Of a DNA stretch of 7,940 nucleotides, positions 1-7,940 are shown piece after piece (position 1 is the first letter of the stretch; each line of letters begins with the position of its first letter). Both the position numbers and the translations under genes were made by a program. The stretch lies in the IMG/VR virus record IMGVR_UViG_2563366923_000002, positions 1-7,940 of that record; one strand, given 5' to 3'. Source of the DNA: a virus (taxonomy: Duplodnaviria > Heunggongvirae > Uroviricota > Caudoviricetes). The notes below the pieces were generated by a model. The model did no database searches and had not been told where the DNA came from. It was given only the letters and a program-made list of their open reading frames with translations.

Positions 1-1152
1 ATGCTCACCGTTAAGCAGATTGAAGCAGCAAAGCCGAAAGAAAAACCATACCGCCTTCTCGATGGTAATGGCCTGTACCTTTATGTTCCTGTATCCGGGA
101 AAAAGGTATGGCAGCTTCGCTACAAGATTGACGGTAAGGAGAAAATCCTGACCGTCGGAAAATATCCGCTTATGACTTTGCAGGAAGCAAGGGATAAGGC
201 ATGGACTGCGAGGAAAGACATCTCGGTTGGCATCGATCCGGTAAAGGCGAAAAAGGCTTCGTCTAACAACAATTCATTTAGTGCGATTTACAAGGAATGG
301 TACGAGCACAAGAAGCAAGTCTGGTCAGTAGGCTATGCAACTGAACTTGCAAAAATGTTTGATGACGACATTTTACCTATCATCGGCGGCCTTGAAATTC
401 AGGATATTGAGCCGATGCAACTGCTGGAAGTAATCCGCAGATTTGAAGATCGCGGTGCAATGGAACGAGCCAACAAAGCACGCAGAAGATGCGGCGAGGT
501 TTTCCGTTACGCTATTGTCACCGGTAGGGCTAAATATAACCCGGCACCTGACCTTGCTGACGCCATGAAGGGATACCGCAAGAAGAACTTCCCGTTTTTA
601 CCTGCCGACCAGATCCCAGCATTCAATAAAGCACTGGCAACATTTTCAGGAAGTATCGTATCGCTTATTGCGACTAAAGTTTTACGCTACACAGCCCTCA
701 GAACAAAAGAGCTTCGTTCCATGCTATGGAAGAACGTCGATTTTGAAAACAGGATTATCACCATCGACGCCAGTGTGATGAAGGGCCGCAAGATTCATGT
801 AGTACCGATGTCAGACCAGGTGATTGAACTTCTCACTACGCTAAGCTCAATCACTAAACCAGTGTCAGAGTTTGTTTTTGCCGGGCGCAACGATAAGAAG
901 AAGCCAATCTGCGAGAACGCGGTATTGCTTGTGATCAAACAAATTGGCTATGAAGGGCTGGAAAGCGGTCACGGATTCAGGCATGAATTCAGCACGATTA
1001 TGAACGAGCACGAATGGCCTGCTGATGCTATTGAAGTGCAACTGGCACATGCCAACGGCGGATCTGTGCGCGGTATTTACAACCATGCGCAGTATCTCGA
1101 TAAGCGCAGGGAGATGATGCAGTGGTGGGCGGACTGGATTGATGGGAAATGA
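1..1152 (+). CDS. intS: Phage integrase, P4-family tyrosine recombinase (383 aa)
   Basis: N-terminus MLTVKQIEAAKPKEKPYRLLDGNGLYLYV is the arm-binding domain signature of P4-like integrases. The C-terminal catalytic region has R (LRTKELR), HGFRHEF and the tyrosine in VRGIYNHAQY. The translation matches E. coli prophage integrase IntS as I recall it (memory, not a search). Stop TGA at 1150-1152. Confidence 0.93.
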   Translation: MLTVKQIEAAKPKEKPYRLLDGNGLYLYVPVSGKKVWQLRYKIDGKEKILTVGKYPLMTLQEARDKAWTARKDISVGIDPVKAKKASSNNNSFSAIYKEWYEHKKQVWSVGYATELAKMFDDDILPIIGGLEIQDIEPMQLLEVIRRFEDRGAMERANKARRRCGEVFRYAIVTGRAKYNPAPDLADAMKGYRKKNFPFLPADQIPAFNKALATFSGSIVSLIATKVLRYTALRTKELRSMLWKNVDFENRIITIDASVMKGRKIHVVPMSDQVIELLTTLSSITKPVSEFVFAGRNDKKKPICENAVLLVIKQIGYEGLESGHGFRHEFSTIMNEHEWPADAIEVQLAHANGGSVRGIYNHAQYLDKRREMMQWWADWIDGK

Positions 1153-1307: not shown

Positions 1308-2372
1308 ATGAAATCTAGCACCAAACAAGATGTAGGGATACAATATTTAAGGGGGGTATCTGCTTTATATGTCGTATTTTTCCATTTTAGAGAGTTTTTA
1401 GATAATTTTTTGCCAATAGCTATGTTGGGTCAAAAATTTTTTAGCAATGGCGCTTTCGGTGTTGATATGTTTTTTATAATTAGCGGATATATTATTTCTC
1501 TTTCAACAGAAAAAAAAGACAACTCAATTGTTAAGGGATATATCATAAAAAGATTTTTCAGAATATATCCTGCTTATTTCATAGCACTCTCTATTTTGAT
1601 TATTTTATCCCCAATAAAATATTCTCACCATGATATTTTACGTTCATTTATGATGATCCACCCTGATTATCAATATAATGCACCTTACTTTGGCTATGGT
1701 GTACTATTTACAGCATGGACATTAACATACGAGATATATTTTTATATAATATTTCTAATAGGTATGTTTTTCTCACACAAACATCGCATTATATTTACAT
1801 CAACAATTGCAATATTTGCTATGATATCAATACAGCTTATTTTCAACAAATCAATAAACATTTTCCATCAGGAACAAATTAAAAATGGCGCGGGGATATT
1901 GAATGTCCCAGGAAATATAATGGTTATAGACTTTATATATGGAATGTTTATTTATAAGATTAGAAATCATTTAAAATTAAATAAATATTCTATCGCAATA
2001 TCATTTTTACTTATATCAATTGGATTTATAACAATACAATCAGGAGTAAACGCTGGGCATGGTCCACTGCAATACGGGCTTTACTCCCTAATGATTGTTC
2101 TAGGGGTTGTTATGTACGAGAAAAATAACAAAATTACCGAGATTAAGCCATTGGTTTTTCTTGGAGATATCTCATACTCAGTTTATTTGTATCATGTGAT
2201 AATTGCTACATGTGCATATTCACTCCTATTAAAAATAGGATTTTCAGGATTATCTATGTTCTCTATGATGACAGTTTTATCAATATTTCTTGCGTATATT
2301 TCATATGTTTTAATTGAAGTTCCATCAGTTAAGGTAGGGCATTTAATGTTAAAAAAACAAACGAAAGGTTAA
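1308..2372 (+). CDS. Acyltransferase family 3 integral membrane protein, likely O-antigen/LPS O-acetyltransferase (lysogenic conversion, Oac-like), 354 aa
   Basis: The N-terminal segment IQYLRGVSALYVVFFHF carries the conserved Arg and His arrangement of the first transmembrane helix of acyltransferase-3 enzymes. The whole protein is strongly hydrophobic with many predicted helices. Its position between int and tailspike matches the oac position in Sf6-type phages. Codon usage is extremely AT-rich. Confidence 0.85.
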   Translation: MKSSTKQDVGIQYLRGVSALYVVFFHFREFLDNFLPIAMLGQKFFSNGAFGVDMFFIISGYIISLSTEKKDNSIVKGYIIKRFFRIYPAYFIALSILIILSPIKYSHHDILRSFMMIHPDYQYNAPYFGYGVLFTAWTLTYEIYFYIIFLIGMFFSHKHRIIFTSTIAIFAMISIQLIFNKSINIFHQEQIKNGAGILNVPGNIMVIDFIYGMFIYKIRNHLKLNKYSIAISFLLISIGFITIQSGVNAGHGPLQYGLYSLMIVLGVVMYEKNNKITEIKPLVFLGDISYSVYLYHVIIATCAYSLLLKIGFSGLSMFSMMTVLSIFLAYISYVLIEVPSVKVGHLMLKKQTKG

Positions 2373-2448
2373 ATATTAAAAATGTTCTTCATGGACAATA
2401 GTAAAATACCACCTCCTGAGGAGTTTGTTTAGGGATAACAATAAAAAT

Positions 2449-2475
2449 AGGCATCCAAAATGAATGCCTTTTTTA
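2449..2475. terminator. Bidirectional rho-independent terminator between the convergent acyltransferase and tailspike genes
   Basis: An A-rich tract (AATAAAAATA), a stem of about 6 bp (AGGCAT/ATGCCT, 2449-2454 and 2464-2469) with a 9-nt loop, then a T run (2470-2474). It sits exactly between the two convergent stop codons (2372 and 2476) and reads as hairpin plus U-tract on either strand. Confidence 0.5.
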
Positions 2476-3744
2476 TTACTGAATAAGATAAGCAAAAAAG
2501 CTACAGGCCACTTCGCCAGAAGTGTTGTCTCTTACTATTTTTATAGTATTATCGACGACGCCTGCTGAAATATTTGTTGCAACATCAGTTGATGTCGCAA
2601 TCACACCAATAGACGATGTATTTTGAATTGATTTTATTGTTAGAGGAATTTGTACTGATGCAGATCCATCGGGAATGATAATTATTCCTGTTTGTTTATC
2701 TGGATGGCTTGGTGAATCATTATTTATGAGCCTGCAGTTTGTTGGGCCTACGCTCGCCCCTCCATTAATGACTGTATTATATAGATATGCACTAGCACCA
2801 CCACCTGCATTATCAAAAATGGAAATATCTGCCACCCTGCCACTAGTAAGAGTGCAATTAATTACCCTTACATTCGTTACTGAGTTGACAAGAAGATCCC
2901 CGATTTGTTCATCTACGAGGTTGTTATTTTGGATGATGCAATTGTTTAGAGTTACATTAGAAGGTGAAAATATGTTCTTTGTTATTTCCACCCCCCATTT
3001 TCTACTGTCTGAAAATGTAGAACCAACAGCGGTAAACATATCACTTGAGCCTTCAATAATTGCACAAGATGATGTTGAAGAGTTAGATGAAAAATACCCA
3101 CCAACCAACGTTGCTTGTTTACTGTCCTTTACTCTTAGAGCAGGACCAGTAGCAAGATCTGACATAACGTCAATCAACCATGTCCAAGCCACCCCATCAA
3201 TATCTATTGCTGATAGACCAGCGTCTTCGTAACCGCATGAATAAAATAATTCACCATGCAACTTAAGCCCCTCTGTAATTGTTGAGACATCTTTTTTTTC
3301 ACATCTAGCATAAAACCCGGAATAACAATCTGAGTATGTATTCATAAGCATTCTTGAGTTTATTTGCCCGCCTTCAAATCTTATGCCCCAACTGCTAGCT
3401 GCAAACCTGTTATGTCTAATATCAAGCTCAGCTGCAGAATACCCTGATGGTGAATATATGCATGAGTTTAAAAAAGAAAATGAACACTCTTCTATCGTAA
3501 TAAGAGGACTCTTAATTAGAAAGCCAACACAATTACTTCCACTCTTTCCATATTTTGATGTAATGTTTAACCCATAAAATCGACTAAACTCAGAACCTTT
3601 TAATAAAATAAAGCAAGCATCTCCGTTTTTTAATGGCTCAATTACACTAAGTTTTTTAGAATCTCCATAAATACAAACCACGCTGTCTATTTCAATATTA
3701 GAAATGTAATACGGTAGGTTATTTCCTGGAACATAAATTTTTTT
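2476..3744 (-). CDS. Tailspike, C-terminal receptor-binding segment (right-handed beta-helix, putative O-antigen depolymerase); reading frame is -1 relative to the head-binding segment
   Basis: The ORF frame is open back to a TAA at 3748-3750. Read through the A7 tract, the junction gives ...[43 protein letters not shown]..., the DFGA...AIQ...YVPxG motif typical of pectate-lyase-like beta-helix proteins. The rest is rich in Asn/Ser/Thr/Gly repeats typical of beta-helix tailspikes. AT-rich like the adjacent acyltransferase. Stop TAA at 2476-2478. Confidence 0.75.
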
Positions 3745-4298
3745 GTTTTAGAGCTATCACTCTTAATGGCTTGTATGGCCGAATTAAATGCAGCGCTACA
3801 ATCAGTTCCAGGGATGGCTCCAAAATCAGTTATGCTAATAATCTCTTCATTTTTATCATGTTGTGTAGTGGTTATAGATCCGTCATGCGGCTGCTTTACG
3901 AAAACAACGTGATCATTAACAAGACCTGTTAATGTATCTGATTGTAGTTCACGTTTCAGCATATCAGGGTCATACTTCAGCACATTCGGAAAATAGAACT
4001 GCTGCGAACCGTACGCATCATAAACAGCCATAGAATGGCCTTGCACAGTTACGAACTTGGCAATCTGTCCGTTATATACGGGGTAACCTGCAGCGTTAAT
4101 GATGATTGGTTGCGATACAGGAACGTGAGAGCCGTCTTCGTTCTCTACATAAACCTGAATCTGGTTTTCAGAATTTACCGGGTCAGTGTCAATTTTACCG
4201 ATATAAATTTTGCCATTGGCTACGGCTTTAAAAGAACGAGCCATAGTGAAGAGTTGCGAAGGCATGCTGACCACAACATTTGCGGTGATATCTGACAT
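3687..4298 (-). CDS. Tailspike, N-terminal head-binding domain segment (P22 gp9-like); terminates prematurely at TAG 3687-3689 after the frame break
   Basis: Translation from the ATG at 4296-4298 gives [42 protein letters not shown]...[17 protein letters not shown]...NVLKYDPD, a close match to the P22 tailspike N-terminus as recalled from memory ([42 protein letters not shown]...). GGAG lies 6-7 nt upstream of this ATG. The ORF-track start at 4346 adds 16 unlikely leader residues. Confidence 0.9.
3738..3744 (-). other. A7 homopolymer (coding strand A AAA AAA) where the tailspike reading frame breaks; candidate -1 ribosomal frameshift or slipped-strand site, or a sequencing or decay indel
   Basis: The upstream frame reads ...ACA AAA AAA TTT ATG... 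(TKKFM) and stops 17 codons later. The downstream frame reads AAA AAA ATT TAT GTT (KKIYV) and continues for about 420 codons. One extra A or a -1 slip fuses them. Confidence 0.6.
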
Positions 4299-4323
4299 TT
4301 CATTGCTCCAGACGAATGATATG

Positions 4324-4346
4324 ATGCAACCATGATGTGATTGCAT
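4324..4346. promoter_or_regulatory. Palindrome ATGCAA-N11-TTGCAT (extended imperfect 21-bp dyad TGCAACCATGATGTGATTGCA) in the divergent mnt/tailspike control region; candidate repressor operator
   Basis: Inverted repeat read directly from the sequence, 26-48 bp upstream of the tailspike ATG and upstream of the Mnt-like gene. P22 Mnt is known to bind a palindromic operator, but this sequence is not the P22 operator as I remember it. Confidence 0.3.
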
Positions 4347-4419
4347 ACCGAAATGGTACTATTGAGTATTTATCCAGTAGGTTACGATGCCATTCCACCC
4401 AACTGGTGAGGCATCAAGG

Positions 4420-4680
4420 ATGTACAGCAAATACGACGAGGCGCAGTTTCACTTGAGACTTCCGCATGAACTCCACGCGAAAATTAAGCAGCGTGCGAAG
4501 ATGAATAACAGGTCGCTGAACTCAGAGATAATTGCAGCGATTGAGGAATCATTGGATAAACAAAGCTCTGCATCAGTTTACATTGACGATGCAGAGCGTA
4601 TGGCAGAACAACAATCTGATATGGTTAAGAAAATTGTCTTTGATACGCTCAAGAAGCTATATAAAAAAGACAGCAGATAA
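4420..4680 (+). CDS. mnt: Mnt-like ribbon-helix-helix transcriptional repressor (Arc/MetJ superfamily)
   Basis: FHLRLPHELHAKIKQRAKMNNRSLNSEIIAAIEESL and DAERMAEQQSDMVKKIVFDTLKKLYKK align with P22 Mnt (FNFRMPMEVREKLKFRAEANGRSMNSELLQIVQDAL ... DAERLADEQSELVKKMVFDTLKDLYKK, from memory). The ORF is open from the ATG at 4387; the ATG at 4420 (MYSKYDEAQFHLRLP) fits the Mnt alignment better. Either start is possible. Confidence 0.85.
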   Translation: MYSKYDEAQFHLRLPHELHAKIKQRAKMNNRSLNSEIIAAIEESLDKQSSASVYIDDAERMAEQQSDMVKKIVFDTLKKLYKKDSR

Positions 4681-4700: not shown

Positions 4701-4778
4701 ATGCACAGAGATATGCTGAATATTGCGTTCTACATATTTGGTTTTTACACGTTCCTGGTGTTTGCGAAGCTATTCTGA
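4701..4778 (+). CDS. Hypothetical 25-aa hydrophobic peptide (MHRDMLNIAFYIFGFYTFLVFAKLF), possible small single-pass membrane protein
   Basis: GGAGG at 4692-4696 lies 4 nt before the ATG, 21 nt downstream of the mnt stop on the same strand. The peptide has a charged N-terminus followed by an 18-residue hydrophobic stretch. It is too short for the ORF track and has no homology support. Confidence 0.3.
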   Translation: MHRDMLNIAFYIFGFYTFLVFAKLF

Positions 4779-6479
4779 CAGCGCATCAGACTTAGCCCCC
4801 TGAGTCAGGGCGTTAATGGCCTTTTGTGCCTGCTGCATGGCTTTCTCGAACGCTGTTGATCCGCGTGGGGTGTTTGCCATTCGGAGCATTGCATTTCTGA
4901 ATGGCTCGCTCTCATAGGCGCGAGTAAGAAGTCCGTAGCTTACCGCTGCGCCAGTTGTCGCAGGGTTCATTGCCGTCCCATACCCGATAATGAACGGGAT
5001 GGTTTGCTGCCCTGTTGGTGTTGTTACTGCCGCTTTTGCAGCCTGCTGCGTGGATTGCAGGTAGTTTTTCAATCCTTTCAGATAAGCAGCGTCCTGCCCC
5101 TTAAATGTGATGCCAGTCTGGTTTTGCAGGATGTTAAGCTGCCGAAGGAACTGGTCAGGGGATCCGCCAGATTTCTCCATCGCCTTTCCAATGATGCCAT
5201 TGCGCATTTGCGCCCTGCCAACACGACCAACTGAGTTATACAGCGTCTTAATTTCCGATTTGTTCTTGCTGAATAGCATGTTGTTGACAACTTCCGGCGT
5301 CAGATCGCCTTTCATGAGAACATTCTTCAGCCTGGTATTCTTTAGTTTCGCGGCTTCGTCAGCGTAGACGGCATTGGCCTGCTGATATTTACGGAGAGTA
5401 ATAGCACCGCCAGCCAGCACACCAACGCCTAAATCGGTGGCGAGTGCTTCCGCATCATCTTTCGCACTGTTTGCAGCAAGTGATCCAACTGCGTTTTCTG
5501 CTAGAAGGCGAGTTGCCCCCTGAGCAATTCGACCAGCAAGTGTTGGTGACTGTGTTGCCGCTCTCTCAACGCCAGCAGGAGTGAGGTAAGGCAATGCTTC
5601 AGCAAATACCCTTCCCTCTGTCGTTTGTGGAGTCAGCGCGCCTTGCTGAAGGCCAAAGTCCTGCTCTAATCCCTGCGTTGTTACTCGTGGTGCTGGTTGA
5701 TATGTACCATCGCCAATGCCGAGTTTACCTCCAGCCCAAGCCGCCGCGCTTGTTACAGCATCAGTGAGTTCAGCAGGTATGTTCGCTACGTTGATTCCTG
5801 CCTGTAGTAAGCCGCGCCCGGTTTCAGCAAGTCCATTACCAAGGTCAGACATTATTCCGCCTTGCTGCTGAACAGGTTTCGGTGCGACAGAACTTACGGG
5901 TTGAGGTGGCTGCTGACTGGCTGCCTGCTGCTCAATCTGAGCAAATGGATTATTTGGGTCTGACTGCACGCCTGATGCCGATACTTGTTCGGATGACTGT
6001 GCTTCCAGTTGTGCAAACGGGTTGTTAGGGTCTTGCTGAGGATGTACCTTTGCAGAGGTGGCGCGCTGTTCGACTGTTGAGTCTGTCACCGGGTCACCCG
6101 CCCATTGAGCAAAGCGATCATCAACGTAACCGCGGCCTTCAGGTCCTAGCGTATATTCACCACGCTTTGCCTTCATAACGTTGCCGGGACCGTCGTGATA
6201 AGCCTGAAGAGCGTCACGCCAGTTACCAAACTGCTGGTACATCTTTGCCAGATAGCGCGCGCCAGCGTCAGCCTGATATTCGGGGTTTTGCATTTGCTCA
6301 TCGGTATAACCCATATCACGCCATGTCCCAGGCATGACCTGAGTCAATCCTACAGCCCCGGCGGAGCTTACTGCGGCAGGGTTGTAAGAAGACTCCTTGG
6401 CACCCAGTGCAGTCATCAACCCTTCTGGCACACCGTAACGTGCGCCAGCCTGCTCTAACAAATCACGGTAATTAGCCAT
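4770..6479 (-). CDS. Virion internal/ejection-type protein with N-terminal lytic transglycosylase (SLT) domain, 569 aa
   Basis: GAKESSYNPAAVSSAGAVGLTQVMPGTW is the classic SLT motif (catalytic Glu in ES, then S...GA.GL.Q). No signal peptide. It is followed by a Q/P/S-rich linker with a duplicated DPNNPFAQ(L/I)E motif and an Ala/Gly-rich C-terminal region. Its ATG (6477-6479) abuts the TAA stop (6480-6482) of the upstream gene. Confidence 0.8.
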   Translation of the reverse strand: MANYRDLLEQAGARYGVPEGLMTALGAKESSYNPAAVSSAGAVGLTQVMPGTWRDMGYTDEQMQNPEYQADAGARYLAKMYQQFGNWRDALQAYHDGPGNVMKAKRGEYTLGPEGRGYVDDRFAQWAGDPVTDSTVEQRATSAKVHPQQDPNNPFAQLEAQSSEQVSASGVQSDPNNPFAQIEQQAASQQPPQPVSSVAPKPVQQQGGIMSDLGNGLAETGRGLLQAGINVANIPAELTDAVTSAAAWAGGKLGIGDGTYQPAPRVTTQGLEQDFGLQQGALTPQTTEGRVFAEALPYLTPAGVERAATQSPTLAGRIAQGATRLLAENAVGSLAANSAKDDAEALATDLGVGVLAGGAITLRKYQQANAVYADEAAKLKNTRLKNVLMKGDLTPEVVNNMLFSKNKSEIKTLYNSVGRVGRAQMRNGIIGKAMEKSGGSPDQFLRQLNILQNQTGITFKGQDAAYLKGLKNYLQSTQQAAKAAVTTPTGQQTIPFIIGYGTAMNPATTGAAVSYGLLTRAYESEPFRNAMLRMANTPRGSTAFEKAMQQAQKAINALTQGAKSDALSE

Positions 6480-7484
6480 TTACTGCCCCAAAGATGGAAG
6501 ATATCCGTAGCGATTAATGAAGTCGATTGACAGCTCGGGGTGCTGCTTCAGGTAATCTATAGAAGCCTGAGGCGCTTCCACTCGCTTGATACCGTTTTGC
6601 TGAACGTACTTACCAACCGCCTCATTACGCTTCTGGTTGAGCGTGTTCAGGATGACGCCAGCGTTGCGACGAAAGGACTCCTCGCTCTGCGAGTTCTGCA
6701 GCGAACCAACAGCCTGGTCGAGCTTTTTGCCCTCGGCATCAGAAAGTGCGCCCATGCCTCGCATGGCCTGAACCGCTGTCAGGTATGCTTGTGATTTAAA
6801 GGTATCAAGTCGTGCCTGAGTGTCTGCAGCCTGTGAGCCTGGAACGTTGGGGATTACTCCACGTAAGCCTGTAATGCTCTTAAGTGAAGGAGAACTAACG
6901 ATATCGTTCAGAGTGAACATGCTGGTTGTGATGGTGTTGATGCCGTCTTTGTAGCCATCATTTAGCGCTTGCTGCTTCTGCTGCAACTGCTGGTTGTTGG
7001 CTGCTATGCGGCTCTGTATTTCCTGGCGCTTCAGGTCGTTAGTTTCTGCTGATAGCATCCGGTCAAGGCGCTTATTTTCGTTGTTAATGCGGTTTGTTTC
7101 TGCGTCCAGGTTAATGCGCTGCTGACCTAAATTCGCCTGGATATCTTGTCCGCGCATTGTGATTGCCTGATTCCGAGCGGCGGTTTGCGAATCCAGATCC
7201 TGACCGCGCATGGTAACCTGTCGACCCTGCATTTTATCCTGTAGGTCAAAGTATTTTTCGGGCCCGAGACTGTTCATCCCCAGGTGATCGACAAATTCGC
7301 CGAACTGCCGCGGGTTCTGTTGGTACATCTGAGCGACGTCATGAGGATTAACGCCAACACGAGCTAACTCACCGGCGTTGTTTTGCAGCCATGATTGCAT
7401 TGCTTCTGGAGAAGATGACGCAAGACGTGCGCCAGCCGCTAATGTACCGATAGAATTACGCTGGTCTTCATCAATGAATCCCAT
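6480..7484 (-). CDS. Putative virion/ejection protein, Gln/Asn-rich with coiled-coil-like repeats, 334 aa; start uncertain, possibly 5'-truncated
   Basis: Long ORF tightly coupled to the downstream SLT gene. Contains a tandem peptide repeat (VTMRGQDLDSQTAARNQ / AITMRGQDIQANLGQQR). The ATG at 7484 has only AGG one nt upstream, and the frame stays open a further 24 codons to a stop at 7557-7559 with no alternative start. Confidence 0.6.
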   Translation of the reverse strand: MGFIDEDQRNSIGTLAAGARLASSSPEAMQSWLQNNAGELARVGVNPHDVAQMYQQNPRQFGEFVDHLGMNSLGPEKYFDLQDKMQGRQVTMRGQDLDSQTAARNQAITMRGQDIQANLGQQRINLDAETNRINNENKRLDRMLSAETNDLKRQEIQSRIAANNQQLQQKQQALNDGYKDGINTITTSMFTLNDIVSSPSLKSITGLRGVIPNVPGSQAADTQARLDTFKSQAYLTAVQAMRGMGALSDAEGKKLDQAVGSLQNSQSEESFRRNAGVILNTLNQKRNEAVGKYVQQNGIKRVEAPQASIDYLKQHPELSIDFINRYGYLPSLGQ

Positions 7485-7606
7485 GCCTTTACGAACGGAT
7501 TCAATCTGGTCTGGATATTGAGTATACCCCTCCGAATGAGACTCAACAAGCTGGAGCTAGACTACCAGCCACCACACCACCAAAGCTAACTGACAGGAGA
7601 ATCCAG

Positions 7607-7692
7607 ATGGATGCACAAACACGCCGCCGCGAACGTCGCGCAGAGAAACAGGCTCAATGGAAAGCAGCAAATCCCCTGTTGGTTGGGGTACT
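7607..7692 (+). pseudogene. N: 5' fragment of a lambda-type N antiterminator gene (arginine-rich boxB-binding peptide), diverging after about codon 28
   Basis: AGGAG at 7595-7599 with 7-nt spacing to the ATG at 7607. Translation MDAQTRRRERRAEKQAQWKAANPLLVGV equals the N-terminus of phage lambda N as I recall it, then continues as unrelated LIQYQRENALCVMQMWCPRTRKTN with a stop at 7763-7765. No nutL boxB hairpin found upstream. Confidence 0.7.
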
Positions 7693-7712
7693 CATTCAGT
7701 ATCAGAGGGAAA

Positions 7713-7940
7713 ATGCGCTATGTGTCATGCAAATGTGGTGCCCAAGGACCAGAAAAACGAACTAAATCTGAAGCGATTTCTTCATGGAATAGTCGAATGA
7801 AAGTATGGGTTTATGATCCAGAAACCATATTAAACGCTGAAGAGCGCAGGAGAACGGAAGTCTATATTCATAACCTTAATGAAGATGGATTTACACCAGT
7901 GCTTGTAAAGGCTACTCCGCAGGAGGTTACCGGCGTGTAA
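7713..7940 (+). CDS. Small protein with Lar-like (restriction alleviation family) C-terminal motif, 75 aa from the ATG at 7713; possibly a truncated or degenerate family member
   Basis: VSCKCGAQGPEKRTKSEAISSWNSR resembles the second zinc-knuckle and C-terminal region of Lar-family proteins (C..CGA.GP...EAI.AWN.R, recalled consensus), but the first CPFCG knuckle is absent. AGAGGG lies 4-5 nt before the ATG. The ORF-track version starts at 7611 and overlaps the N fragment in another frame, so that upstream part is probably not real. Stop TAA at 7938-7940. Confidence 0.4.
   Translation: MRYVSCKCGAQGPEKRTKSEAISSWNSRMKVWVYDPETILNAEERRRTEVYIHNLNEDGFTPVLVKATPQEVTGV

What the first reader, a model, noticed from the sequence alone, without database searches (positions are those of the whole stretch)
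3687..3750. Tailspike gene is split by a one-base frame break at a perfect slippery heptamer (A AAA AAA) inside a conserved motif
The head-binding segment and the beta-helix segment are in frames offset by one base, and the switch maps to the A7 run at 3738-3744. Reading through with a -1 slip or one extra A gives ...[47 protein letters not shown]..., restoring the DFGA...YVP-G signature of beta-helix depolymerases, so the two ORFs are clearly one gene. A AAA AAA is the same class of heptamer used for programmed -1 frameshifting (for example A AAA AAG in E. coli dnaX), and homopolymers this long also undergo transcriptional slippage and slipped-strand phase variation. Possible explanations are a homopolymer sequencing error, decay of a cryptic prophage, or a switchable tailspike; the truncated product would be a free head-binding domain.
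Basis: partly seen in the sequence, partly recalled or inferred. Interest (0 to 1): 0.7.

Follow-up and report, generated by a model that had tools for sequence, protein, structure and literature searches.

The report
Frameshifted tailspike pseudogene in prophage remnant
A phage tailspike gene in a decayed E. coli prophage remnant has lost one A from a run of eight, which splits it into two reading frames; this is an ordinary inherited pseudogene mutation, not a sequencing error and not a programmed switch.

Summary
On the minus strand, an A7 run (window 3744-3738) separates a 203-aa head-binding ORF from a C-terminal ORF in the -1 frame. Adding one A, or slipping back one base, gives a 607-aa P22-like tailspike.

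E. coli O19:H7 730V1 has the same 1,825 nt except for A8, annotated as one intact 607-aa CDS. All twelve other full-length or near-full-length variants retrieved also read ...[13 protein letters not shown]... in one frame. Three A8 loci lie directly behind a full P22-type tail and ejection gene block.

A7 is not a sequencing error. Its exact 203-aa product is on 85 contigs, from NCBI isolates, Logan assemblies and an ENA metagenome.

Every A7 locus examined is a remnant at argW/intS with no head, portal or terminase genes. These remnants carry four different internal deletions. Some also have second lesions: a G6-to-G7 indel or an IS in the tailspike, and a C6-to-C7 indel in the acyltransferase.

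Nothing suggests recoding. Downstream RNA folds no better than shuffled sequence (z -0.29 and -0.01). There is no nearby Shine-Dalgarno-like element. The Lys-Lys tract is not conserved in distant homologues. No A5, A6, A9, A10 or A11 alleles are on record.

Verdict: an A8-to-A7 deletion inherited in a decaying cryptic prophage. Low interest.

The parts
3738..3744 (-). A7 homopolymer (T7 on the + strand). It is the site of the 1-bp deletion relative to the A8 of intact alleles. The 0-frame phasing is A AAA AAA.
   Evidence: A8 in L001 and L008-L013; A7 in the window and L002-L007. It is the only difference in 1,825 nt versus NZ_CP061764.1.
3687..4298 (-). 5' part of the tailspike gene. It covers the head-binding domain, the neck and the start of the beta-helix (residues 1-187), then 16 out-of-frame codons and a stop. 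The product is 203 aa.
   Evidence: translation. (PF09008 Head_binding, E 5.1e-66, residues 1-112). (Sf6 gp14 7sg7, E 5.6e-75). (exact product on 85 contigs).
2476..3738 (-). 3' part of the tailspike gene in the -1 frame (I188 to Q607 plus stop). It is the receptor-binding beta-helix domain. Gene callers annotate only a 401-aa GTG ORF, 2476-3681.
   Evidence: It is 38-44% identical to tailspikes and tail fibres that carry PF13229 or PF12708. It is 41.9% identical to the phage Ag3 tailspike.
4306..4309 (-). GGAG ribosome-binding site 7 nt upstream of the true ATG (4298).
   Evidence: sequence. Gene calls in L002-L013 start at this ATG.
2440..2469 (-). Terminator-like hairpin plus T-run just after the tailspike stop codon.
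   Evidence: stem 2469-2449, 9 pairs, followed by ATTTTTATTG. This is a consensus match only.
4387..4680 (+). Mnt/Arc-family repressor gene, transcribed divergently from the tailspike (immI-type remnant).
   Evidence: PF11423 8.7e-15, PF03869 1e-14. It is called as 86 aa in relatives.
4770..6479 (-). gp16-like ejection protein with an SLT lytic transglycosylase domain.
6480..7484 (-). 5'-truncated gp20-like ejection protein: 334 aa, against 443 aa in 730V1.
7523..7524 (.). Deletion junction. Relative to the 730V1 remnant, 2,373 bp are missing here: the repressor, a lysis fragment, KilA-N and the 5' end of gp20. Beyond the junction lie fragments of the phage's early region, namely the N antiterminator and a Lar-like gene.
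   Evidence: BLAST break at window 7523/7524, matching L011 402-2774. (gene tables).
1308..2372 (+). Acyltransferase_3 gene, probably an O-antigen acetylase lysogenic-conversion gene. It is intact in the window.
   Evidence: PF01757, 8.3e-32. GC content 29%.
1..1152 (+). Prophage integrase IntS, next to tRNA-Arg (argW) and yfdC just outside the window.

Best explanation
The tailspike gene of a P22-like temperate phage integrated at argW suffered a genuine 1-bp deletion in an A8 run (A8 to A7), most likely by replication slippage. This happened in an E. coli lineage where the prophage had already decayed to a roughly 8-11 kb remnant containing integrase, O-antigen acyltransferase, tailspike, mnt, gp16 and part of gp20. 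The mutation has been inherited vertically and is now the commonest allele of this tailspike type in public assemblies.

The gene is a pseudogene. Translation ends 16 codons after the tract and yields a 203-aa head-binding fragment. The beta-helix part is untranslated except for trace read-through. That read-through would come from spontaneous -1 ribosomal slippage on A AAA AAA, or from RNA polymerase adding an A, and is expected to be well below 1%. It is incidental, not programmed.

What is shown: the lesion, its reality, the intact A8 ancestor, the remnant context, and the absence of recoding signals.

What is inferred: the direction and mechanism of the mutation, that there was a single event, and that the split has no function.
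For: (1): the window and 730V1 differ only by A7 versus A8 over 1,825 nt; the A8 form is annotated as an intact 607-aa CDS.

(2): 13 full-length or near-full-length variants were retrieved, namely P0001, P0019, P0020 and P0023-P0029 (607 aa) plus P0030 (a 571-aa partial). All read [13 protein letters not shown] in one frame.

(3): A8 loci L009, L010 and L013 have the gp4, gp10, gp26, gp7, gp20 and gp16 genes directly upstream, so the in-frame form is the one found in apparently functional prophages.

(4): the exact A7 products are on 85 contigs (203 aa) and 79 contigs (401 aa). Sources are NCBI isolates (including a 4.9-Mb NCTC contig and KTE233), Logan assemblies and an ENA metagenome, so A7 is not an assembly artefact.

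(5): all A7 loci are remnants flanked by chromosomal genes (GntP and LysR on one side, yfdC and mlaA on the other). They show four different internal deletions, and no capsid, portal or terminase genes appear in any locus table. The window is 100% identical over all 7,940 nt to one of the fetched loci. Its gene layout (334-aa gp20 next to the N36 fragment) matches L003, the commonest architecture, with 16 similar places not shown.

(6): A7 remnants and the A8 remnants L008 and L012 have 100% identical chromosomal flanks. This indicates the same host lineage, so the slip occurred after decay had begun.

(7): further lesions occur in A7 relatives. L005 has G6 to G7 in the tailspike 3' part. L007 has an IS in it. 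L002 has C6 to C7 in the acyltransferase. This is what neutral decay by homopolymer indels looks like.

(8): no downstream structure (z -0.29 and -0.01).

(9): the TKK tract is not conserved at 38-44% identity.

(10): no A5, A6, A9, A10 or A11 products are on record.

(11) Literature. PMC4066793 lists A_AA.A_AA.A without stimulators only among motifs above 0.10%. Motif to no-motif ratios without stimulators are at most 10, over a background of about 0.055%. The paper also reports AAAAAAA as under-represented in E. coli genes, with indel mutation and transcriptional slippage offered as possible reasons. PMC5009743 describes efficient bacterial transcriptional slippage at runs of 9. The abstract of PMC8538453 reports that about 12% of A/T 8+mer loci in Salmonella are mutated.
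Against: One further contig (P0031) carries the A7-type truncated product on a backbone differing by S43P. This could be a second independent slip. It could equally be a SNP within the A7 lineage, a recombinant, or an assembly error. I could not fetch the contig.

The heptamer is perfectly phased for -1 slippage, so some full-length protein cannot be excluded.

The 203-aa ORF is conserved exactly on 85 contigs, while the two secondary lesions in the tailspike both hit the 3' part. With only two events this is not significant; the chance expectation is about 0.44.

No expression data exist.
Confidence: 0.86

Rival explanations
1. Sequencing or assembly error: the true sequence has A8 and the gene is intact.
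For: Homopolymer miscounts are common in some platforms. One complete genome has A8 with otherwise identical sequence.
Against: The exact A7-derived 203-aa protein occurs on 85 contigs and the matching 401-aa ORF on 79. They come from different sources and pipelines (NCBI isolates, Logan, an ENA metagenome). All six A7 loci fetched show A7, while six loci with identical flanking sequence are called A8. The calls are therefore lineage-specific, not random.
Confidence: 0.02
2. Programmed recoding: -1 ribosomal frameshifting on A AAA AAA, or transcriptional slippage, is used to make a set ratio of free head-binding fragment to full-length tailspike.
For: The heptamer is in the correct X_XXY_YYZ phase. 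A_AA.A_AA.A is used by many IS elements (PMC4066793). Poly-A transcriptional slippage rescues a split tssM gene in Citrobacter (PMC4256274).
Against: All intact relatives, including those in apparently complete prophages, encode a single ORF with A8, so the two-frame arrangement is not conserved. There is no downstream hairpin or pseudoknot above background. No Shine-Dalgarno-like element lies 6-17 nt upstream (sequence). A 7-nt tract is shorter than the 9-11 nt of documented bacterial slippage sites. The host element lacks all the capsid genes a tailspike would attach to.
Confidence: 0.04
3. Phase variation: the A7/A8 tract is a reversible slipped-strand switch that turns the tailspike on and off.
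For: Both A7 and A8 occur in remnants with identical chromosomal flanks. An A7-type product exists on a second backbone (S43P) on one contig.
Against: Only two lengths are on record; A5, A6, A9, A10 and A11 are absent. A7 loci carry further irreversible lesions and deletions. Seven to eight bases is short for a contingency locus. The pattern fits one slip followed by clonal spread: each deletion architecture is seen with a single tract length. A tailspike has no obvious role in a remnant that has no virion genes.
Confidence: 0.06

Closest known systems
P22-like (Lederbergvirus-type) tailspikes, e.g. Sf6 gp14, HK620 gp9 and P22 gp9
   Same: The N-terminal head-binding domain matches (PF09008, E 5.1e-66; Sf6 gp14 7sg7, E 5.6e-75 over residues 1-196; 90-93% nucleotide identity over the first ~338 nt to HK620, IME10 and Sf101). 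The exchangeable C-terminal receptor-binding domain follows the same modular plan. The gene position is the same: after gp16 and mnt, and before an O-antigen modification gene and the integrase.
   Different: The receptor-binding domain matches no sequenced phage at the DNA level. The best protein matches are about 40% identity, to Salmonella phage KKP 3828 and Shigella phage Ag3. In this window the gene is split by a 1-bp deletion.
Cryptic prophage remnants at argW/intS of E. coli (the CPS-53/KpLE1 position in K-12, from my own knowledge; Kapi1 also integrates at argW, abstract of PMC8787464 seen)
   Same: Same attachment site (tRNA-Arg, intS, yfdC). Same pattern of retaining the integrase and O-antigen modification end of the prophage while the rest is deleted.
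   Different: The gene content differs from K-12 CPS-53. Here the remnant keeps a tailspike, mnt and the ejection proteins.
dnaX and IS-element -1 programmed frameshift sites (A AAA AAG / A AAA AAA)
   Same: Identical class of slippery heptamer, in the correct phase.
   Different: No stimulators, no conservation of the split arrangement, and an in-frame ancestral state.
Poly-A transcriptional slippage rescue of split genes (Citrobacter rodentium tssM1, A11; PMC4256274)
   Same: A gene interrupted at an A-run, where adding one A to the mRNA would restore the full-length protein.
   Different: That tract is 11 A with about 20% slippage, and both products are shown to be needed. Here the tract is 7 A, the host element is defunct, and the intact relatives have no frame break.

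Membership tests
P22-like tailspike | N-terminal head-binding domain (PF09008) | tested here: met
   E 5.1e-66, residues 1-112; matches solved Sf6 and P22 tailspike N-domains.
P22-like tailspike | C-terminal receptor-binding domain homologous to beta-helix tailspikes | tested here: met
   38-44% identity over 85-100% of the query to proteins carrying PF13229 or PF12708, and to the phage Ag3 tailspike. Pfam itself did not reach threshold on this protein's C-part. No structure was predicted.
P22-like tailspike | Single uninterrupted ORF | tested here: not met
   the gene is split at A7 in the window. The feature is met in the A8 relatives.
Programmed -1 ribosomal frameshift site | X_XXY_YYZ heptamer in the 0-frame phase | tested here: met
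   AC[A AAA AAA] TTT.
Programmed -1 ribosomal frameshift site | Downstream stimulatory hairpin or pseudoknot, or upstream Shine-Dalgarno-like element | tested here: not met
   z -0.29 and -0.01 against shuffles. No GGAG or AGGA within 6-17 nt upstream. Pseudoknots were not explicitly modelled.
Programmed -1 ribosomal frameshift site | Two-frame organisation and slippery site conserved among homologues | tested here: not met
   all homologues are single ORFs, and TKK is not conserved at 38-44% identity.
Programmed -1 ribosomal frameshift site | Measured frameshift product | not testable with these tools
   Needs a reporter assay or proteomics.
Transcriptional slippage site | A or T run of about 9 or more | tested here: not met
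   The run is 7. Documented cases have 9-11.
Phase-variable contingency locus (homopolymer slipped-strand mispairing) | Multiple tract lengths and recurrent switching among close relatives | tested here: inconclusive
   Only A7 and A8 were found, and no A5, A6, A9, A10 or A11. A7 is on one backbone on 85 contigs, plus one contig on an S43P backbone. No host phylogeny is available.
Frameshift pseudogene in a cryptic prophage remnant | An intact orthologue differs only at the lesion | tested here: met
   a single 1-nt gap in 1,825 nt.
Frameshift pseudogene in a cryptic prophage remnant | The lesion is real and heritable | tested here: met
   85 contigs from independent sources.
Frameshift pseudogene in a cryptic prophage remnant | The element lacks essential phage genes and shows other decay | tested here: met
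   chromosomal genes lie within 2-5 kb on both sides. There are four deletion architectures, extra homopolymer indels and an IS insertion.

The most novel reading that the evidence does not exclude
The 203-aa product is a complete head-binding domain plus neck. It might be kept and expressed from the remnant as a decoy that occupies tailspike-binding sites on the tail machines of superinfecting P22-like phages. That would make it a dominant-negative anti-phage function. Rare A7-to-A8 slips, at DNA, RNA or ribosome level, would occasionally supply a full-length tailspike that could be assembled onto heterologous virions and change their host range.
Probability: 0.03. Interest if true: 0.6.

Novelty: already known. 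Interest (0 to 1): 0.1.

Why it matters
It matters little beyond annotation. The two adjacent 'hypothetical protein' and 'bifunctional tail protein' ORFs found in about 80 E. coli assemblies should be annotated as one frameshifted tailspike pseudogene in an argW prophage remnant.

The case is also a clean illustration that a perfectly phased slippery heptamer at a frame break is not evidence of recoding. Population data (A8 in intact phages, A7 only in remnants) settle the question. Had the switch been real, it would have been a new way for a phage to regulate its receptor-binding protein.

Tried and rejected
- Sequencing error was rejected by exact-protein look-ups.
- Stimulatory RNA structure was tested by folding 80 nt and 163 nt around and downstream of the tract; neither differed from shuffles.
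- An Rfam scan of the whole window found no family.
- Other tract lengths (A5, A6, A9, A10, A11) on this backbone were looked up; none is on record.
- A7-type products on five other N-terminal backbones were looked up. Four were absent and one (S43P) was present on a single contig.
- A megablast of the gene against sequenced phages found only the head-binding region (query 1-338 nt), so no isolated phage carries this receptor-binding domain at DNA level. Among 5,426 complete E. coli genomes only 730V1 has the whole gene.
- Two literature searches for a frameshifted or phase-variable tailspike found nothing directly relevant.
- I did not predict a structure or run the large representative search, because the identity of the protein was already clear.

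Full report
**Observation**

The gene lies on the minus strand. The + strand has T7 at 3738-3744, which is A7 on the coding strand. The upstream ORF is listed as 3687-4346. Its real start is the ATG at 4298, preceded by GGAG at 4309-4306. Gene callers use the same start in all related loci. This ORF encodes MSDIT...SDSSKTKK followed by 16 out-of-frame residues ([16 protein letters not shown]) and a stop, 203 aa in total.

The downstream reading frame is -1 and reads ...[13 protein letters not shown]... to a stop at 2476-2478. In the 0 frame the tract is phased AC[A AAA AAA] TTT, a textbook X_XXY_YYZ heptamer. One extra A, or a -1 slip, joins K187 to I188 and yields 607 aa.

The presence of the tract is unremarkable. 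The receptor-binding part of the gene is 37% GC. About 49% of shuffles of the gene contain an A7 or T7 run. Two in-frame 8-mers lie nearby, at 1510-1517 in the acyltransferase and at 3292-3299 in the tailspike 3' part.

**Identity of the gene**

The joined protein has a P22-type head-binding domain (PF09008, E 5.1e-66). It matches the solved Sf6 tailspike over residues 1-196, which spans the break (E 5.6e-75). The rest is 38-44% identical to tailspikes and tail fibres from Enterobacter, Citrobacter and metagenomes, many of which carry Beta_helix or Pectate_lyase_3 Pfam domains. It is about 40% identical to proteins of Salmonella phage KKP 3828 and Shigella phage Ag3. In the 16-sequence alignment, D158, A174 and A177 (before the break) and P191 (after it) are invariant. 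The two ORFs are therefore one gene.

The surrounding genes are as follows:
- intS, 1-1152 (+)
- an Acyl_transf_3 gene, 1308-2372 (+)
- the tailspike
- an Mnt/Arc repressor, 4387-4680 (+)
- a gp16-like SLT ejection protein, 4770-6479 (-)
- a 5'-truncated gp20-like protein, 6480-7484 (-)

Together these form the attR-proximal end of a P22-like prophage at tRNA-Arg (argW), next to yfdC.

**The in-frame relative**

Among 5,426 complete E. coli genomes, only O19:H7 strain 730V1 (NZ_CP061764.1) has the whole gene. Over 1,825 nt it differs from the window by one base, A8 instead of A7, and it is annotated as one 607-aa CDS.

The 90%-identity protein cluster has 54 members. It holds 13 full-length or near-full-length variants (P0001, P0019, P0020, P0023-P0029, all 607 aa, and the 571-aa partial P0030). 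Every one reads ...[13 protein letters not shown]... in a single frame.

Three loci encode the identical 607-aa protein (L009, L010, L013). They have the P22-type gp4, gp10, gp26, gp7, gp20 and gp16 genes directly upstream and carry A8. A8 in frame is thus the state found in apparently functional phages, and I infer it to be ancestral.

**Is A7 real?**

Yes. The exact 203-aa product is on 85 contigs and the matching 401-aa ORF is on 79. Sources are NCBI isolates (KTE233 and an NCTC assembly with a 4.9-Mb contig), Logan assemblies of SRA runs, and an ENA metagenome assembly. All six fetched loci (L002-L007) show A7, whereas six loci with identical flanking sequence show A8. A random homopolymer miscount cannot produce this lineage-specific pattern.

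**Context of A7**

Every A7 locus is a short remnant bounded by chromosomal genes: gntP and a LysR-type gene on one side, yfdC and mlaA on the other. None has capsid, portal, terminase, replication or lysis genes in its locus table.

The A7 loci show four different internal deletion architectures:
- repressor plus full gp20 (L002)
- N fragment fused near gp20 codon ~110 (L003, L006, L007 and the window)
- a 127-aa fusion ORF with Inj_translocase and gp16 hits (L004)
- a 66-aa gp16 stub (L005)

The window is 100% identical over all 7,940 nt to one of the fetched loci. Its gene layout matches L003, the commonest architecture (16 similar places not shown). Relative to the 730V1 remnant it lacks a further 2,373 bp, with the junction at 7523/7524.

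A8 also occurs in remnants (L008, L011 = 730V1, L012). L008 and L012 have chromosomal flanks 100% identical to those of the A7 remnants, while the complete prophages sit in backgrounds about 1.5% diverged. The slip therefore happened inside a host lineage whose prophage was already defective.

A7 relatives carry additional lesions. L005 has G6 to G7 in the tailspike 3' part (window 2991-2996). L007 has an IS in that part. L002 has C6 to C7 in the acyltransferase (window 1351-1356). Homopolymer indels and deletions are plainly the ongoing mode of decay here.

**Tests of the interesting readings**

*Programmed recoding.* The RNA downstream of the tract folds no better than dinucleotide shuffles: 80 nt gives -12.1 kcal/mol, z -0.29, and 163 nt gives z -0.01. 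No Shine-Dalgarno-like element lies at the distance that stimulates dnaX-type shifting. The Lys-Lys codons are not conserved in homologues at 38-44% identity. Rfam finds nothing in the window.

According to Sharma et al. 2014 (PMC4066793), A_AA.A_AA.A without stimulators is only among motifs giving more than 0.10%. Motif to no-motif ratios without stimulators reach at most 10, over a background of about 0.055%. Efficient bacterial transcriptional slippage is documented for runs of 9-11 (PMC5009743, PMC4256274). Any full-length protein from the A7 allele should therefore be a trace.

*Phase variation.* Hypothetical A5, A6, A9, A10 and A11 products on this backbone are absent from a collection of about 15 billion proteins. 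Of five other N-terminal backbones, four have no A7-type product. One, differing by S43P, has it on a single 9.5-kb Logan contig (P0031), which I could not retrieve. This is the only hint of recurrence. It is equally explained by a SNP within the A7 lineage, by recombination, or by an assembly error.

**Conclusion**

This is an A8-to-A7 single-base deletion in the tailspike gene of a decaying P22-like prophage remnant at argW, inherited clonally. The result is a pseudogene.

Shown: the lesion, its reality, the intact progenitor state, the defective context, and the lack of recoding signals.

Inferred: replication slippage as the mechanism, a single origin, and the absence of function for the truncated product.

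The same paper that characterises the heptamers notes that AAAAAAA is under-represented in E. coli genes and offers indel mutation and transcriptional slippage as possible reasons. A survey in Salmonella found about 12% of A/T 8+mer loci mutated (PMC8538453 abstract). The finding is therefore an ordinary, already-known kind of event.

The residual novel possibility is a selected free head-binding 'decoy' fragment, with or without occasional restoration of the full protein. No data support it, and I put it at about 3%.

Noticed in passing
window 7523-7524 (and L002-L012): Remnants of the same prophage, in hosts with identical chromosomal flanks, carry at least seven different internal deletion architectures (four with A7, three with A8). 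All of them remove genes between the immunity region and gp20/gp16, yet always spare mnt, the tailspike, the acyltransferase and int. This could mean repeated independent deletions in one lineage. It could also reflect selection to keep the O-antigen acyltransferase end.
   Followed up: partly
window 1351-1356 (G6) and 2991-2996 (C6 on +): Relatives have +1 indels at these other homopolymers. L002 has C6 to C7 in the acyltransferase (ORF shortened from 354 to 316 aa). L005 has G6 to G7 in the tailspike 3' part. Whether these are real or assembly errors in single assemblies was not checked.
   Followed up: partly
window 1510-1517 and 3292-3299: Two further 8-nt A/T runs lie in frame, one in the acyltransferase and one in the tailspike 3' part. 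These AT-rich genes (29% and 37% GC) are rich in slippage-prone tracts.
   Followed up: no
L001/L011 (NZ_CP061764.1 1523841-1524821): Strain 730V1 has an IS5-like ISKpn26 insertion between the acyltransferase and intS. The window and the other loci lack it.
   Followed up: no
window 4299-4386: An 88-bp divergent intergenic region separates mnt from the tailspike. No arc or ant genes lie between them, unlike P22 immI. The tailspike may therefore be transcribed from an Mnt-controlled, Pant-like promoter in the remnant. Only one weak promoter-like match was seen on the + strand (4292-4320).
   Followed up: no
window 4770-6479 vs L009/L010/L013: The remnants carry a 569-aa gp16 with an N-terminal SLT lytic-transglycosylase domain. 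The complete prophages with the identical tailspike carry a 665-aa gp16 without the SLT hit. The ejection-protein module is mosaic: identity drops from about 99% to about 91% around window 5400.
   Followed up: no
window 7607-7765 (+): A 52-aa ORF matches the N36 peptide of the lambda-type N antiterminator (by correspondence with PF11438 gene calls in L003). It overlaps a 109-aa ORF with a weak Lar-like hit. These are leftovers of the phage's early region, abutting the deletion junction.
   Followed up: no
P0031 (Logan contig, 9,516 bp; not retrievable): An A7-type truncated product occurs on a backbone with S43P. It may be a second independent slip at the same tract.
   Followed up: partly
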